This document shows positions 6,001-27,000 of a DNA stretch of 64,000 bases, piece after piece. The stretch is from Ruditapes philippinarum (taxonomy: Eukaryota), in contig NW_026866246.1 in assembly GCF_026571515.1 (NCBI RefSeq), positions 124,001 through 188,000 of the forward strand, in the 5' to 3' direction. Every line of letters starts with the position of its first letter. The stretch's first letter is position 1. Position numbers: made by a program.

Positions 6001-9000
6001 AGCTCGGGCTTTAAATACGTCCACGTGCTTCTGCAGATATATATGCACGAAAAGTAAGGGGACATAAACCCTAAAACAATGTATCAATAGATTTACTGAA
6101 TTACTCCCGAAGAAAATCTAATTATGTAAAACTATAAGTTTACAAATTGTATAAATCACAAATATTCAGTTCTCAAGTAAGATTGAAATCCTACAACTTA
6201 CCGTCAATTTATTTCTGGCCTGAGGTCCTATGGGTGGAGTTAATGGATCAATGGCCACGGAGAAGACGATCCAGTAAGTTAATAGTACCTCCTTTTTCTT
6301 TGATCCGCATGATAGAGTGGTATCGCCATAGTAAGGTGAAGCTGTGCATTGGAACAAATCAGATAAGGCCCTAAAATAGTATAATAAAACAATTTAACTC
6401 GTGCTATGGTAAATAATTTGTCTTATTACAAAATATTTAATGTAGTTGCAAAGATAAATACCTTTTGTATTGTTCTCGAGCCATTGATAGAGTTTGAGCA
6501 TAAATTTTCTTTATCTCGGACATCATGCCGTGTGTTTTACGAAAACAATCGTGTATAGACTTTAACACCTCATTCTCGTAAGACTGAAAACATGTCATGT
6601 TTAACATGTAATCTTCGTTCAAAACTGAAAATATATAATGTATTTAAGTTACAAGTAAATAATGTTAACATTTAAATGAAGAGCAAAAACAAGTTCTAAA
6701 AATGTGAGTTTCAAATTATGAATATATTTGGAATACAAAAAGTCGTGGTTGTCGGTGACTGTAATTGAAATAAAATGTTAAATAAAAATCACAATGCATA
6801 TGTATATGGTTCATATACTGTCCAAAAAGAGCCTTCCTATAAGAAGGGTTGTTATATTGTGAATGTAGAAAAAGTATATATGTGCTCCATTTACAAGTGC
6901 ATACGTACCACCACGGATCCAAGAGGATGGTTGATTATTTTCACAAAGAAAAGAAACCTTTTCTCTTACAACATCATTGATTGTTTCTGTAAGCTCTGGA
7001 CAGACTGATACAATATCTCTTGTACATCTTGTATAAGCCTCGTTAATTTGCTCGTCACTGAAAGATTAGGATCAAAGCACTAAAAGTACCGAAAATCAGA
7101 GAGAATTAGTCGGAGTAAAAATATTTAGGTGTTTGTAAGGCAGTGGCCAGTTGCAAAAAGTAAAATAAAACTGTATTTGGAAAGTTTATTTGAGGCGAGG
7201 TGATCAAGGTGAGGCACATTCCAAAAAGATTTGTCTTAAACATTTCATACTCGGAAGAACTGTCTTCACAAGAAATCGCAAACATTTGGCTTGTTGTAAA
7301 CATATTTATAAAGAGTACTTTTCATTTACTTTTAATTGCATAAATAATATTTTGTTTTGCCTAAGTTTGATAGATAACAATAAGATTTGAAAAACAATTC
7401 GATTGAGTTTCAACGGTCAATGTTATATTTAAAACTTTGATTTTGACCTTAACCCTATTGGACACAAAAGTAGTCCCAAGCTGAATAGCCAAATTTCCAT
7501 ATAAGCTTGCTATATACCAAGTTTGATCTACCGCTCTCCAGCCTGTCCACATTTGCCAACCTATTATGAAGGACTTTTGAAATTGAAATCCTGGTTAACC
7601 TGATCATAATATAGATGCTTTCATAAAATACATGCATATCAAGAATGGTGAATACGAATAATCGGATAGAAAAAATCCGCATTTGGTTAGTGACAAATAT
7701 GGTAACATACATGTATTTTTTATAATTACATGTAACAACACAGTGAGCTGCTCAATTACAATTGCAGGATTTGTCCATTTAAACTTGTACACACGAATGA
7801 ACTATCTAATTTAATTGTTTTATTCAATGTTGCTAAAAAGTGTATATCTTTTACTTATCGGTAGCTTTTTTTAAAGCGTTTTATGTTATTTCGGTCTGCC
7901 CAAATTAAGCTACAAAATTTTGATATGCTAACAAAATAATAAGTATATGCTGAGATTCCATAATATCATGCAAAACTCAAATGTTATTTTCTTCTGTTGC
8001 TTTCATTTTCAGTAATCATTGTTTTAAGTTGATTACTGACTTTTTTCTGTTTGTTTTGTTTGTTTTTATTTATTTATTTATTCTTAAAAGAAAGTTTTGA
8101 TCAATTTAATGTGTCATCTTCAAAATACACGCTATCTGCCACAATGCACTTTTGCAGTCTTTCAACCCATATTTCATACTCATCATCTGAATTCTGATAT
8201 ATTGCTGAGCCAACGGCCTTCCTGGAATGGTACATTTTTCCAGACAGGTAGTATTCTAGATTTGGGGAAAAGAAAATGTCAGAGGGAGAAAGATGATGTG
8301 GGATGTTGGTTTCATTCTCCTACGCCAAAACCCAATAACACTGTACGACTTATGGGCGGATGCGTTAACATATAAGAAACGGGTGTACTTGAGTCCTGTC
8401 TTGGGACGATAAAGTTTGTAGCAGTAATTTTATTCGCAAAGAACATCATTTCTTTAGAAAGTACTTTCGGTCATTTTTTTCCTTTATGTAGCAGATTTTT
8501 CAGAACCATTATTTCACTTTGCAATGTACTGGCGTTTGCATTTGTGGTTCCAAAAATTAACACTTTCGTTTGAGTTCAAATATGTAAACGCAAGTCGCAT
8601 TACCAGAAATCACATTGTCAAAAGCTTTCTTGTTATATTTTTGACACATCTTCCGGTTGTGCTAATGACAAGTTTGTCATACGTGTTATCTGCCTCATTG
8701 AAAATCGAGCATCCTTTTAAAAATATTGCGATTTTGTCTGTGTTACGGTAAACATTATTCAAGTAAGAACTACTGGAACCACTCAACAATTAAAAAAAGC
8801 CAAATAGAAGTAACTAAAATTAGCACAAACACAACAATAATATCGTGTTGAAGAATAATATTACACTTAAAACATGTCATGTCGTATCCCCACCACATCC
8901 CCCATAAAAAAAGAAGAGGTAAAATTTCGGGGAAAATCTATGGAATGAAACAGGCAAACAGTGCTGGACGCAAATATGTGATTTAAAATACATTCTAGGT

Positions 9001-24000: not shown

Positions 24001-27000
24001 AATGGTAGCGAAATTTCAGAGCCTAATGCTGTTAATTGCAATTGCCTAAAGTAGTCCACTTATTTGAAGTGGTTACTTCCCTTTACATGTACACTAACGC
24101 CGAAAAATTCAGGGGAGATCAATGCGTAAAGATTGTCAAATGACAGGCGCATTAATTTTGAAGCAAAGTAGTTCCCGAATGGTCGAATATTTCTAAAAGT
24201 ATTTCATTCTTTATAGATATACATGCTTGCAGTAAGCTCCATGCTTATTTACATCTGTGTTAAACAACAGGTTTAGCGTCGAAATAATAAGAGTTACAAA
24301 CCCTAATTTAGAATAATATGGTTTTCTTCAAGCCATTACTACAGAACTTCATCGTGGCCGAGGGGTTTGCACGCTTGCTTATGAATCGAGAAGTCTGGAG
24401 TTCAAATCCCAGTTGAGTCAAATCAGTTTTTTAAAAAATCTTTTAAGTCAAATAAACATTGAATTGACTATCAGTGTTGCAATTAGTCTTATAGCTAATT
24501 TACTACAGTTAAAACACTGGAAAGCATTGGTGGCATTATACAAAAACAAATTGGTTTATAATCTCACAACCTTCACCATTCTGACATTCTGAGACCCAAA
24601 CAAATTCAGCGCCTTCTGTGCTTTGATTAATGATAGATTTATAATGTCGTATATATTCAGTAAACTTGAAGTATACATAATATCCAGTGGCTGGGTAAAC
24701 ATAATTTGACAATTATGTATTGACATTTATAAATAAAATATGCTATATGCAAAATTTCTTTGAAAAAAGTGACTATAACAGTGTCAGAAATTAACAGCCA
24801 TTAAACAATGATCGTATATATTTATTCAGAAATACTTTAGATCAATGACTGAGTGCTTATAATCGCCGTCTTCAAATCACTTGCGCCTCACAGTTTTGGT
24901 TAGAATCCCATCACGGATTGTTACATATTAGGAAGGTATTCGGTTAGCTAAGTTCTATTAAGATGCACACTTGTGCTTGAAATAATTTAAAACCCGAGGT
25001 CTGCCTTCTCGTGTAAAAAGGAGTCGCTATATGAACTTTACAATAAAATCCAATAAAACAAACGACATGCACAATTTTAATGATATTCAGATAGTTTTTA
25101 TGGTTGCTATAGATTAAATAAAAATATGGTTTATTATTTTCTAACAGTAATCAGTATACCTGCATGTAGATGTTATTTGTGCCAGGAAAGACTCTCTTGT
25201 TATCACGGCGGATTCCGTCAATTCGGTCATAACGCTAGAGTATCCAGTGACGTTTGATGACCGGAAACATTCCACAAACTGTTTCAGTACAGTATTTATT
25301 TCATTACAGTTAGATTCCTTCACTACTTCATCTGCGCTTTCCGAATCAGCCAGTGAAAGCACGGCGGAAACAGCTAGTAGCATCACTTAAAGTAGAAATA
25401 TTTTTTCATAGATATTTAAACAATGAGAAAATTTCTTTCCTACAAAACATTTAACAAATACTGCGTATTATTTACAACCCGCGTTTGAATGTTACATGAC
25501 TTTTTAAAGTGAATTGGTACATTAGTAAAGGGTATAATGTTATACATAAAAAAGGTGTATATGGCCTTTAGTGTCAAACGTGACACCAAACAACAAAATT
25601 GCATGTACATATTGTTGGCAAGTGTGAGGAACATGATCCAAATTAAATATTTATATATAATTAATAATAAATTGTTCTAGAACACAATCTTATTATTGAT
25701 CATTTATTACATGCTTTTCGGTGGTTTATAGAAATATATCAGTGATTTAAAACTGGTAATTTCACTGTTTGAAACAGTGAAATTACCACTTTGATAATTT
25801 CACTGTTTTGAATTTAAGCCCCTTACGTTGTTTCAGTGAAATACCAGCGTGCACAGAACTGGGTACCAACTTAATGACGTGACGTCATAAATGACGTCAC
25901 GTTGAATTATTATTTGGCGCGCTTTTCATTCAGTATTAAGTTTAATGTCTTTTTAAAACGTTTCTTTGCATATAATAAAAAGAAAATTTGTTTAGTTTAG
26001 TGTAAGATCGAAATATATTTCACCTTGTGAACACCAAAAGTTCATATTTCACTCGTGGCTGCGCCACTCGTGAAATATACCTTTTGGTGCTCACTCGGTG
26101 AAATATATTCCGATCTTACACGGAACTAAACAAATATCCTCTATATAAATAATAATTCAGAACTTGTTTTTTTTCTTTTTCAAGAAATATTTTGGATATA
26201 TATCAAAATGCCGCATTTCTATAGTTTTTATTAATTTATTCAATCAATATTTACGAAAGCCTAATAGTGTCAAATGAAATAAAAAATAAAAATACAAAGG
26301 CGTTATAACGCGAATAAAGGCGTTATTACGCGAATCAAAAGGCGTAATAACGCAAATAAAGGCGTTATAACGCGAATCAAAAGGCGTAATTACGCAAATC
26401 AAAAGGCGTAATAACGCGAAAAAAGGCGTAGCAACGCAAATAAAGGCGTAGCAACGCGAATAAAGGCGTTATAACGCGAATCCAAAGGCGTAATAACGCG
26501 AATAAAGGCGTAATAACGCGAAATGAAAGGCGTAATAACGCAAATCAAAAGGCGTAGTAACGCGAATAAAGGCGTTGTAACGCGAACCAAAAGGCGTACT
26601 AACGCCAATTAAAACGAATTATAATGCCAATTTAATACCATATTTATACTAATCAAATGGCCTGGTAACGTAAGAAAGCAAACCAATATTGATCTGAATT
26701 TATTCCTCAAGATATAAACTCGTATAGAATAATATAATTTACATTTACAATAACTAACATTCCATTTGCGCAGTAATAATGCAATTTATTTGTCATAAAC
26801 TAATGAAGACTCTTTAATATTTGCCAATTTAAGGTGTCTGGGTGCCTTATAGGTCCATTGGACTGGACGTAAATACAGTTAATCTGAATTCACATGTATC
26901 ATATATTGCTTTTACACATGTCACTATAGTAAATAAATTTCTTTTCTTTTCTTATCTTATCTTATCTTATCTTATCTTATATGTGCGTCATATGTTCAAT

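What the first reader, a model, noticed from the sequence alone, without database searches (positions are those of the whole stretch)
6011..25409. Hidden tandem pair of unnamed secreted Cys-patterned glycoproteins between PIGZ and TM9SF2
Seen: two minus-strand genes with matching exon phases (2,1,2,0) and identical exon 2 and 4 lengths. Both have signal-peptide-like N-termini followed by an acidic linker. Ten cysteines are position-conserved across exons 1-4, with an 11th in the last exon of gene A. Two N-glycosylation sequons are conserved despite changed residues (NTT/NVT; NMT/NTS). The ORF track shows only disconnected fragments. Inference: the Cys spacing falls into two similar halves separated by amphipathic-looking segments, reminiscent of all-helical disulfide-rich secreted domains (DUF19/DUF1397-type). 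I cannot assign a named family, so this may be an undescribed lineage-specific secreted family (haemolymph, mucus, shell or gamete product).
Basis: partly seen in the sequence, partly recalled or inferred. Interest (0 to 1): 0.8.

Follow-up and report, generated by a model that had tools for sequence, protein, structure and literature searches.

The report
Tandem clam genes for secreted cysteine-rich proteins
Two neighbouring Manila clam genes, already in NCBI's annotation but unnamed, encode secreted, disulfide-rich, all-helical glycoproteins of a small protein family that has no name, no solved structure and no known function.

Summary
The paralogous pair is real. Four exon blocks match between the copies (tblastn E 2e-32 to 3e-16). 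They share AG/GT sites, phases 2,1,2,0, exon lengths 149/149 and 169/169, ten aligned cysteines and two shared sequons.

The pair is not hidden. An exon-only search returned two NCBI proteins of Ruditapes philippinarum, LOC132731893 and LOC132731894, each 252 aa, "uncharacterized", and 100% identical to the window's exons.

The genes therefore span 4530-10975 and 20095-30937. No 11th cysteine appears in the last exon.

Pfam and PDB sequence searches found nothing. An exhaustive profile search found 27 proteins at E<=0.001, a family of 220-255 aa. At least five of its loci are in this clam.

With 22 members AlphaFold gave a confident helical model (pLDDT 86.8, pTM 0.83). It has no Foldseek neighbour in PDB or BFVD.

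Language-model neighbours are DUF1397, DUF19 and CPG4 clusters, twice. That is a lead only; the Pfam models do not match.

Both copies are under purifying selection (dN/dS about 0.33). One exon has unusually low dS.

The result is a solid annotation of moderate novelty.

The parts
10951..10975 (-). Gene B (LOC132731893) coding exon 1: start codon plus 8 1/3 codons (n-region of the signal peptide); donor G|GTAAGT, phase 1
   Evidence: First 8 residues of P0001 located here; context and donor read
9148..9376 (-). Gene B coding exon 2 (229 nt): rest of the signal peptide, acidic linker, Cys 1-3, sequon NTT.
   Evidence: tblastn of P0001 100% over 9150-9377; acceptor ATATAG and donor GTAAAG
6909..7057 (-). 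Gene B coding exon 3 (149 nt): Cys 4-6, the invariant Cys-Pro, the most conserved core
6462..6624 (-). Gene B coding exon 4 (163 nt): Cys 7-8, sequon NMT
6202..6370 (-). Gene B coding exon 5 (169 nt): Cys 9-10, hydrophobic helix; donor GTAAGT, phase 0
4530..4553 (-). Gene B coding exon 6: last 7 codons plus stop TAG; acceptor TTTTGCAG; AATAAA 68 and 78 nt after the stop
   Evidence: blastn similarity to gene A's terminal exon and start of the 3' UTR
30913..30937 (-). Gene A (LOC132731894) coding exon 1: start codon plus 8 1/3 codons; donor G|GTAAGT, phase 1
25160..25385 (-). Gene A coding exon 2 (226 nt): rest of the signal peptide, acidic linker, Cys 1-3, sequon NVT
   Evidence: tblastn of P0002 100% over 25162-25386; acceptor TTTAAG
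23716..23864 (-). Gene A coding exon 3 (149 nt): Cys 4-6 and Cys-Pro
21512..21677 (-). Gene A coding exon 4 (166 nt): Cys 7-8, sequons NTS and NCS
21216..21384 (-). Gene A coding exon 5 (169 nt): Cys 9-10; donor GTTTGT, phase 0
20095..20118 (-). Gene A coding exon 6: last 7 codons plus stop TAG; acceptor TTTTGCAG
23693..23878 (-). Stretch of 88.7% DNA identity with 6886-7071 (exon 3 plus about 14 and 23 nt of intron): candidate gene-conversion tract
   Evidence: blastn; dS 0.21 here against 0.76 to saturated elsewhere; Fisher p 6.7e-6; introns beyond about 30 nt are at shuffle-level identity

Best explanation
The region holds a tandem, head-to-tail pair of intact protein-coding genes of the Manila clam Ruditapes philippinarum. 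NCBI annotates them as LOC132731893 (window 4530-10975, minus strand) and LOC132731894 (20095-30937, minus strand). Each has six coding exons with phases 1,2,1,2,0 and encodes a 252-aa precursor.

Shown: the paralogy, the splice architecture, ten aligned cysteines, two shared N-glycosylation sequons, an N-terminal hydrophobic leader with small residues at -3/-1, no later hydrophobic segment long enough to span a membrane, and purifying selection on both copies. They belong to an unnamed family of 220-255-aa proteins with the same cysteine skeleton and an invariant Cys-Pro. The predicted fold is a confident all-helical bundle.

Inferred: the precursor enters the ER, the leader is cut after about residue 20/21, and five disulfides lock the roughly 12-helix globule. 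One to three N-glycans are added, and an acidic glycoprotein of about 232 residues is secreted. It has no KDEL-type signal, GPI-type tail or membrane anchor.

The family-wide invariant or near-invariant residues are cysteines, one proline, and aromatic or aliphatic core positions. No catalytic-looking polar set is conserved. I therefore think it acts as a non-enzymatic extracellular binding or matrix-associated protein of a body fluid or secretion. It resembles the arthropod 27-kDa DUF1397 glycoproteins and the nematode DUF19/CPG4 proteins in its features.

My confidence by step: real secreted disulfide-rich helical protein, about 0.85. Non-enzymatic binder or matrix component, about 0.5. True remote kinship with DUF1397/DUF19/CPG4, about 0.4.

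The duplication is old, since dS is saturated in two exons. Exon 3 was probably homogenised later by a short gene conversion.
For: Paralogy and exon model. The summed coding length is 759 nt, which is 252 codons plus stop, in both genes (coordinates).

Identity with NCBI proteins: the search with exon 3 alone returned P0001 and P0002, the only 2 proteins at E<=0.01 among 58 candidates. tblastn matched each at 100% to its own exons, with no third copy in the 64 kb. P0001 and P0002 are 59% identical, with 147 invariant columns of 253.

Selection: per-exon Nei-Gojobori dN/dS was 0.26-0.34, and 0.33 from the summed counts.

Secretion signals: the maximum 9-residue hydropathy in the first 35 residues was 3.68 and 2.80. 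None of 22 family members has a 19-residue window of 1.6 or more after residue 40, and 19 of 22 have a hydrophobic N-terminus.

Family: 27 proteins at E<=0.001, 13 at <=1e-10, among 1.84 billion representatives. In the 22 full-length members, C84, C96, C104 and P105 are invariant and five more Cys are present in 90% or more. Of the 22, 13 have exactly 10 Cys after residue 25. P0017, P0020 and P0029 are further R. philippinarum loci.

Fold: AlphaFold2 with the 22-row alignment gave pLDDT 86.8 and pTM 0.83, with 186 of 252 residues at 90 or more, all helices. Residues 1-25 were below 50, as expected for a leader plus linker.

Likeness: the Atlas feature neighbours of P0001 and of P0009 were the same nematode 'Secreted protein', DUF19-named, DUF1397 and CPG4 clusters, at 0.86-0.92 with 175-206 of 256 shared features. 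Passages in three papers list DUF1397 proteins as a centipede venom protein of unknown function, a mosquito peritrophic-matrix component and the silkworm 27-kDa glycoprotein (PMC4379518, PMC5865745, PMC8358373, passages only).
Against: I saw no transcript or protein evidence. The database rows list only NCBI-derived sources, one member and one contig each. The splice junctions, including the two micro-exons, therefore rest on an automatic annotation plus conservation between the paralogs. Gene B also has an in-frame ATG at 9416 that would give a signal peptide without the upstream exon.

No signal-peptide predictor was available, so cleavage sites are rule-of-thumb. Disulfide pairing could not be read because model coordinates are not returned.

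Nothing bears directly on function. Pfam found no family at or above cut-off for either protein or for any of the 22 members. PDB sequence searches gave best E 0.26 and 0.089. Foldseek gave 0 hits at E<=0.001 in PDB and BFVD.

The Atlas states that scores near 0.9 occur for 4-10 in 100 shuffled proteins. In both calls only 3 of the ten best named hits shared a family or clan, which the tool itself flags as 'probably wrong'. P0009's recognition value of 2151 is below the tool's 2300 mark.

In this pair the family's Trp/Asp motif after Cys 10 is replaced by a Lys-rich stretch, so the pair may work differently from the rest of the family.
Confidence: 0.75

Rival explanations
1. The pair, and the whole family, are divergent but true members of the DUF1397/DUF19/CPG4 group of protostome extracellular proteins. 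On this view the finding is a new branch of a catalogued, functionally unknown superfamily rather than a family of its own.
For: Two Atlas feature searches, with members only 19% identical to each other, returned the same clusters. These were a DUF19-named cluster with DUF1397 on 12% of members (0.90 and 0.92), arthropod DUF1397 at 98% (0.91), DUF19 at 90% (0.87 and 0.88) and CPG4 (0.86-0.87). One of 22 members touches CPG4 at E 0.068. Size (about 230 aa), signal peptide, glycosylation and cysteine-rich helical nature are similar to those families; this part is recalled knowledge of them.
Against: None of 22 members matches PF07165 or PF01579 at E<=1, and none reaches any Pfam cut-off. The Atlas gives no alignment or E-value and warns about chance scores near 0.9. 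The cysteine counts differ as I recall them (DUF19: 12 in about 130 aa), which I did not test. No structure of those families was available for comparison.
Confidence: 0.4
2. One or both copies are unexpressed or decaying duplicates, and the NCBI models are prediction artefacts.
For: I saw no transcript evidence. Gene A has a 5.5-kb first intron full of satellite arrays, and its first poly(A) signal lies 490 nt after the stop. Retroelement fragments lie between the genes.
Against: Both reading frames are open over all six exons with canonical splice sites. dN/dS is 0.26-0.34 in every exon large enough to measure. All ten cysteines and the micro-exons are kept in both copies. Exon-sized ORF fragments that end at the same exon borders exist in other database entries (P0011, P0015, P0024, P0026).
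Confidence: 0.08
3. The protein is built from an internal duplication of a four-cysteine helical hairpin module.
For: The cysteine spacings are 13-35-12 for Cys 1-4 and 15-36/37-13 for Cys 7-10. P0025 lacks both Cys 7 and Cys 10, which fits a nested pairing (one observation).
Against: hhalign of the N-half profile against the C-half profile gave probability 0.9% and E 0.06 over 18 columns, pairing Cys 3/4 with Cys 7/8. blastp of the halves gave E 0.057 for P0001, pairing Cys 1/2 with Cys 7/8, and E 4.0 for P0002. The two registers disagree.
Confidence: 0.25
4. The low synonymous divergence of exon 3 reflects constraint on the RNA, such as splicing enhancers or structure, rather than gene conversion.
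For: The identity is confined to the exon plus about 20 nt on each side, and the flanks further out are at shuffle level. Exon 3 is also the most conserved part of the family.
Against: dS drops about four- to nine-fold relative to the other exons (0.21 against 0.76 to saturated; p 6.7e-6). That is a large effect for splicing constraint. The 88.7% tract runs without gaps into both introns.
Confidence: 0.3

Closest known systems
DUF1397 (Pfam PF07165), the arthropod '27-kDa glycoprotein' family
   Same: It is a nearest language-model neighbour: an arthropod cluster with PF07165 on 98% of members scored 0.91 with 195 of 256 shared features. The proteins are about 230 aa, secreted and glycosylated, and are found in extracellular fluids and matrices (centipede venom, mosquito peritrophic matrix, silkworm 27-kDa glycoprotein; passages read). 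Function is unknown in both.
   Different: There was no HMMER match: 0 of 22 family members at E<=1. The taxon differs (arthropods against a bivalve). No alignment, shared motif or fold superposition could be obtained here.
DUF19 (PF01579) and CPG4 (PF15481) proteins of nematodes
   Same: They are feature-search neighbours at 0.86-0.92 in both Atlas calls (41, 49). They are extracellular and cysteine-rich, and CPG4 is named after a chondroitin proteoglycan core protein (names as given by the tool).
   Different: DUF19 matched 0 of 22 members. CPG4 matched 1 of 22 at E 0.068, against a cut-off of 27 bits. The cysteine number and domain length differ as I recall them, which was not tested.
Other R. 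philippinarum loci of the same unnamed family (LOC132744465, LOC132755979, LOC132717094)
   Same: They share the ten-cysteine skeleton, the Cys-Pro and the length (223-234 aa). E values were 1e-9 to 1e-15 against the pair, and they score about 1e-61 against the family profile.
   Different: They are only 23-25% identical to the pair and lie on other contigs. They keep the Trp/Asp motif after Cys 10, which the pair has replaced by a Lys-rich stretch.

Membership tests
Unnamed ten-cysteine family defined here (alignment A6) | Significant profile match over nearly the full length | tested here: met
   27 proteins at E<=0.001 and 13 at <=1e-10. Matches cover about 200 or more of the 253 profile positions in 7 full-length members (e.g. 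P0004, positions 19-245) and about 120-200 in the other full-length ones.
Unnamed ten-cysteine family defined here (alignment A6) | Ten-cysteine skeleton with the invariant Cys-Pro | tested here: met
   C84, C96, C104 and P105 are present in 22 of 22 members. C123, C146, C161, C197 and C210 are in 20-21 of 22. Both window proteins have all ten.
Unnamed ten-cysteine family defined here (alignment A6) | N-terminal signal-like leader and no transmembrane segment | tested here: met
   19 of 22 members have a hydrophobic N-terminus; the 3 exceptions look N-terminally truncated. None of 22 has a 19-residue hydropathy window of 1.6 or more after residue 40. No dedicated signal-peptide predictor was run.
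DUF1397 (PF07165) | Match to the Pfam model at or above its gathering score | tested here: not met
   No match for P0001 or P0002 at E<=10. 0 of 22 members matched at E<=1.
DUF1397 (PF07165) | Same fold | not testable with these tools
   No AlphaFold-DB library was available. No PDB neighbour was found at all, with best E 1.4 and TM 0.25 or less.
DUF19 (PF01579) | Match to the Pfam model at or above its gathering score | tested here: not met
   0 of 22 members matched at E<=1. There are only Atlas feature scores of 0.87-0.88.
CPG4 (PF15481) | Match to the Pfam model at or above its gathering score | tested here: not met
   1 of 22 members matched at E 0.068, below the cut-off.
Insect OS-D / chemosensory proteins (PF03392) | Match to the Pfam model at or above its gathering score | tested here: not met
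   3 of 22 members matched, with best E 0.13.

The most novel reading that the evidence does not exclude
The family is an undescribed extracellular helical fold. The model is confident, yet nothing in PDB or BFVD aligns to it above TM 0.25. It would also be the missing lophotrochozoan branch that ties arthropod DUF1397 and nematode DUF19/CPG4 into one ancient protostome superfamily of disulfide-locked secreted proteins. On this reading the clam pair is a recently diverging sub-branch that has rebuilt the motif after Cys 10 and is kept partly uniform by gene conversion.
Probability: 0.3. Interest if true: 0.5.

Novelty: new variant of a known kind. Interest (0 to 1): 0.3.

Why it matters
Bivalve genomes are full of unnamed secreted proteins, and few have been given a family, a fold or a gene model checked by hand. 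This work turns two "uncharacterized LOC" entries into several usable things. There is now a defined family with a ten-cysteine signature, a confident structural model and a corrected view of the gene limits. There is also a testable link to the equally obscure DUF1397, DUF19 and CPG4 proteins of arthropods and nematodes. If that link holds, one structure or one ligand would inform three phyla. On its own, the finding is an ordinary lineage-expanded secreted family, and nothing here points to an unusual mechanism.

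Tried and rejected
1. Pfam on each of the 8 reader-type exon translations gave nothing better than E 0.048, and nothing near a cut-off.
2. Pfam on the two NCBI proteins gave best E 0.043 and 0.047, unrelated families, all below cut-off.
3. AlphaFold2 with only the two paralogs as alignment gave pLDDT 39.1. It was unusable and was not searched.
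4. PDB sequence search with P0001 and with the family profile gave best E 0.26 and 0.089.
5. Foldseek of the good model had 0 hits at E<=0.001 of 379 (PDB) and 320 (BFVD) listed matches at E<=10. The vitamin-D-receptor, haem-oxygenase and OSTM1 rows have TM 0.15-0.23 and are noise.
6. The Atlas structure search used the Atlas's own poor model (pTM 0.47) and gave only bacterial hits at TM 0.33 or less. I disregarded it.
7. The internal duplication was not significant.
8. The word-indexed homologue search with the pair (2 of 3348 candidates) and with the 22-row profile (5 of 2400 candidates) returned only R. philippinarum proteins. This reflects the tool's word limit, not the family's range.
9. 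The listing of cluster members could not be run, so the organisms behind P0003-P0016, P0018, P0019 and P0021-P0028 are unknown.
10. Literature: the two LOC identifiers occur in 0 papers of the library. 'DUF1397' occurs in 8 papers, of which I read passages in 3. A mixed search for DUF19, DUF1397 or CPG4 with mollusc terms produced no relevant paper among the 15 listed, from the listing only.
11. A membrane-anchor or GPI reading was rejected. There is no hydrophobic C-terminus, and the hydrophobic stretch in exon 5 is about 13 residues.

Full report
SCOPE AND RULES KEPT. The window has 64,000 bases and no N, with G+C of 29-38%. It is not human. Its exons are 100% identical to two NCBI proteins of the Manila clam Ruditapes philippinarum. 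All full-length work used the database proteins P0001 and P0002 that the exon search returned. Selection statistics were computed per exon and only the counts were added.

1. THE OBSERVATION.

Minus-strand stop-to-stop segments of 20000-26000 were searched against 5500-10000. They gave four colinear protein blocks at E 2.2e-32, 1.9e-28, 2.6e-18 and 2.5e-16. blastn gave four HSPs of 88.7%, 76.6%, 76.4% and 70.2% identity.

Reading the minus strand and locating the borders gave these exons:
- Gene B: 9148-9416, 6909-7057, 6462-6624, 6202-6370.
- Gene A: 25160-25383, 23716-23864, 21512-21677, 21216-21384.

All exons have AG acceptors and GT donors, and the phases are 2,1,2,0 in both genes. Per-exon protein identity is 46%, 84%, 42% and 70%. 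In one search the tool shows M for a first TTG codon, which is a translation-table artefact. Ten cysteines and two sequon pairs align. This part of the finding is correct and far beyond chance.

2. WHAT THE GENES REALLY ARE.

A profile of exon 3 alone (alignment A1), searched among longer proteins, returned exactly two proteins (the only 2 at E<=0.01 among 58 candidates). These are "uncharacterized protein LOC132731893" (P0001, gene B) and "LOC132731894" (P0002, gene A) of R. philippinarum. Both are 252 aa and come from one 329-kb contig. So the pair is annotated, though unnamed.

The first eight residues come from a 25-nt exon upstream (B 10951-10975, A 30913-30937).

The last seven residues plus the stop come from a terminal exon far downstream (B 4530-4553, A 20095-20118), each behind a TTTTGCAG acceptor. 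The exon lengths add to 759 nt in both genes, which is 252 codons plus stop.

I favour the NCBI ends for three reasons:
- Both micro-exons, with their splice sites and phases, are shared by the two paralogs.
- blastn detects the terminal exon and the start of the 3' UTR (A 20028-20126 against B 4471-4561, 73.7%, E 7e-11), while introns beyond about 30 nt from exons are at shuffle-level identity.

The claimed 11th cysteine in A's last exon is not in the NCBI protein. A Cys appears only if coding exon 5 is read through its donor.

Gene B's in-frame ATG at 9416 would also give a leader, so an alternative start cannot be excluded without RNA data. I saw no transcript evidence. tblastn of both proteins finds no third copy in the window.

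3. THE PROTEINS.

P0001 and P0002 are 59% identical. Each has:
- an n-region with basic residues;
- a hydrophobic core (9-residue hydropathy maxima of 3.68 and 2.80);
- small residues at -3/-1 before an Asp-Ser start of the mature chain;
- an acidic linker.

The mature chain is about 232 residues and net acidic: D+E against K+R is 33 against 24 in P0001 and 29 against 23 in P0002. It carries ten cysteines with gaps of 13, 35, 12, 8, 19, 23, 15, 36/37 and 13. Sequons lie at N54 and N143 in B, and at N53, N142 and N159 in A. No 19-residue window reaches membrane-spanning hydropathy, and the C-terminus is polar.

Selection is purifying in every measurable exon:
- Exon 2: dN/dS 0.28.
- Exon 3: dN/dS 0.34.
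- Exon 5: dN/dS 0.26.
- Exon 4: dS saturated, dN 0.47.
- Summed counts: 0.33.

4. THE FAMILY.

Pfam finds nothing for single exons or for the whole proteins. PDB sequences give best E 0.26. The word-indexed search finds only the pair itself (2 of 3348 candidates).

The exhaustive HMMER search of 1.84 billion representatives with the two-row profile found 27 proteins at E<=0.001, 13 at <=1e-10 and 3 at <=1e-30. Twenty are full-length proteins of 195-255 aa other than the pair's own representative. Six are short ORF-like pieces (P0003, P0011, P0015, P0019, P0024, P0026). Each matches a single exon, and four of them (P0003, P0015, P0024, P0026) end a few to a few dozen residues past that exon's border, as a read-on into the intron would. 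These are probably unspliced ORF calls on other assemblies or related genomes.

The alignment of 22 full-length members (A6) shows 18-33% identity to P0001 outside the pair:
- C84, C96, C104 and P105 are in 22 of 22.
- C123, C146, C161, C197 and C210 are in 20-21 of 22.
- W131 is in 18, W222 in 19 and F195 in 19.
- Exactly ten Cys after residue 25 occur in 13 of 22.
- A hydrophobic N-terminus occurs in 19 of 22. The other three look truncated.
- No transmembrane-grade segment occurs in any of the 22.

The sequon before Cys 7 is present in 8 of 22, and a sequon two residues after Cys 3 in 10 of 22. The pair's first sequon occurs only in the pair. No set of conserved polar residues suggests a catalytic site. 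The pair has replaced the family's Trp/Asp motif after Cys 10 by a Lys-rich stretch.

A profile search in the named database returned five proteins, all from R. philippinarum. They include LOC132744465, LOC132755979 and LOC132717094, which lie on other contigs. P0029 is 88% identical to P0017. The organisms of the other members could not be looked up, so the family's range is unknown.

5. FOLD.

With only two sequences AlphaFold2 failed (pLDDT 39.1). With A6 it gave pLDDT 86.8 and pTM 0.83, and all five models scored 85.5-86.8. The model has twelve helices of four or more residues after the leader's own, and residues 1-25 have low confidence.

Foldseek found no neighbour. In PDB, 0 of 379 listed matches were at E<=0.001, with best E 1.4 and TM 0.25 or less. 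In BFVD, 0 of 320 were, with best E 0.28. No library of predicted cellular structures was available, so "no known fold" is not shown. What is shown is only that no solved or viral neighbour was found. Coordinates are not returned, so disulfide pairs could not be read. The joint loss of Cys 7 and Cys 10 in P0025 hints at a Cys 7-Cys 10 bond (a single case).

The ESM Atlas feature search placed P0001 nearest to:
- a nematode 'Secreted protein' cluster (0.90);
- a DUF19-named cluster with DUF1397 on 12% of its members (0.90);
- DUF19 (0.87);
- CPG4 (0.86).

P0009, only 19% identical to P0001, gave the same clusters (0.92, 0.92, 0.88, 0.87 and 0.86) plus an arthropod DUF1397 cluster (0.91).

It is not a membership test. 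The tool warns that shuffled proteins reach 0.9 in 4-10% of cases. Only 3 of the ten best named hits share a family or clan. The Pfam models themselves match 0 of 22 (DUF1397, DUF19) or 1 of 22 at E 0.068 (CPG4).

The 'two halves' idea rests on cysteine spacing only. hhalign of the halves gave probability 0.9%, and the two weak alignments use different registers.

7. HOW IT PROBABLY WORKS.

The shown parts are a leader, the cysteine skeleton, sequons, a helical model, the absence of an anchor, and purifying selection.

The inferred parts are ER import, leader cleavage near residue 20/21, five disulfides, N-glycosylation, and secretion as a soluble acidic glycoprotein. It would act extracellularly without catalysis, as a binding or matrix-associated component. 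This is how DUF1397 proteins appear in the passages I read: a centipede venom protein of unknown function, a mosquito peritrophic-matrix component, and the silkworm 27-kDa glycoprotein. Ligand, tissue and partner are unknown.

8. HISTORY OF THE PAIR.

Synonymous divergence is saturated or near it in exons 2 and 4 (dS 1.9 and pS 0.76) and is 0.76 in exon 5. In exon 3 it is only 0.21, from 6 differences over about 32 sites against 78 over about 123 elsewhere (Fisher p 6.7e-6).

The 88.7% DNA tract (A 23693-23878, B 6886-7071) overruns the exon by about 14 and 23 nt. Further out the introns are random.

I read this as an old tandem duplication followed by a short gene conversion over the core exon. 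Constraint on the RNA is the alternative.

9. SURROUNDINGS.

- Upstream of gene B's 3' end lies a single-exon Glyco_transf_22 ORF (1019-2911 +, E 1.2e-55), convergent with gene B.
- Beyond gene A, EMP70 exons run colinearly from 43.7 to 63.9 kb on the + strand (profile positions 4 to 481).
- The names PIGZ and TM9SF2 were not tested beyond family level.
- Between the two genes lie two reverse-transcriptase-bearing retroelement fragments on the + strand.
- Gene A's first intron holds satellite arrays.

10. NOVELTY AND VERDICT.

The loci are known to NCBI's annotation. The two LOC identifiers occur in none of the papers searched, and supplements could not be read.

The contributions here are the family definition, the confident model without a solved neighbour, the corrected gene limits, the conversion tract, and a twice-seen but unproven link to DUF1397, DUF19 and CPG4.

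I rate it a new variant of a known kind, namely secreted disulfide-rich helical glycoproteins of invertebrates, with interest 0.3.

Unchecked:
- metagenome and viral contig collections (closed);
- cluster membership and taxa (tool unavailable);
- AlphaFold-DB comparison;
- RNA-seq;
- a signal-peptide predictor;
- paper supplements.

Noticed in passing
window 14226-15855 (+) and 16095-19126 (+): Two reverse-transcriptase-bearing retroelement fragments (Pfam RVT_1, E 1e-10 to 4e-14) lie between the two genes, on the opposite strand. The reading frame of the first is split over at least 4 ORFs and that of the second over at least 6.
   Followed up: partly
window 54681-57557 (+): An uninterrupted open frame of 958 codons (listed ORF 923 aa) has an RVT_1 domain (E 3.8e-27). 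It sits between EMP70 exons, so it is in an intron of the TM9SF gene. It may be a young retroelement copy.
   Followed up: no
window 26290-26613, 27437-28258, 28939-29356 and 29585-29809: Satellite arrays lie inside gene A's 5.5-kb first intron. One is a 21/42-nt unit present in both orientations (up to 16 copies, 82-87% matches). The other is a 25-nt unit (9 copies, 95%). Gene B's first intron is only about 1.6 kb.
   Followed up: no
window 23693-23878 and 6886-7071: Exon 3 of the two paralogs is 88.7% identical in DNA (dS 0.21), while the other exons are at dS 0.76 to saturated. This is probably a short gene-conversion tract.
   Followed up: yes
window 34150-35220 (both strands): An island of higher G+C (0.38) carries several overlapping ORFs of 75-182 codons on both strands and has no Pfam match. 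It lies between gene A and the TM9SF gene. Its nature is unknown.
   Followed up: no
window 32127-32345 (+): A 73-codon open segment has a weak match to DUF1091 (E 0.002, 18.9 bits, below the cut-off of 25). It may be an exon of another small secreted-protein gene, or chance.
   Followed up: no
window 9377-9416 (-): Gene B has an in-frame run of ATG codons just upstream of the exon 2 acceptor. Without the upstream exon, this would give an alternative 24-residue signal peptide. Gene A has a stop codon at the matching place.
   Followed up: partly
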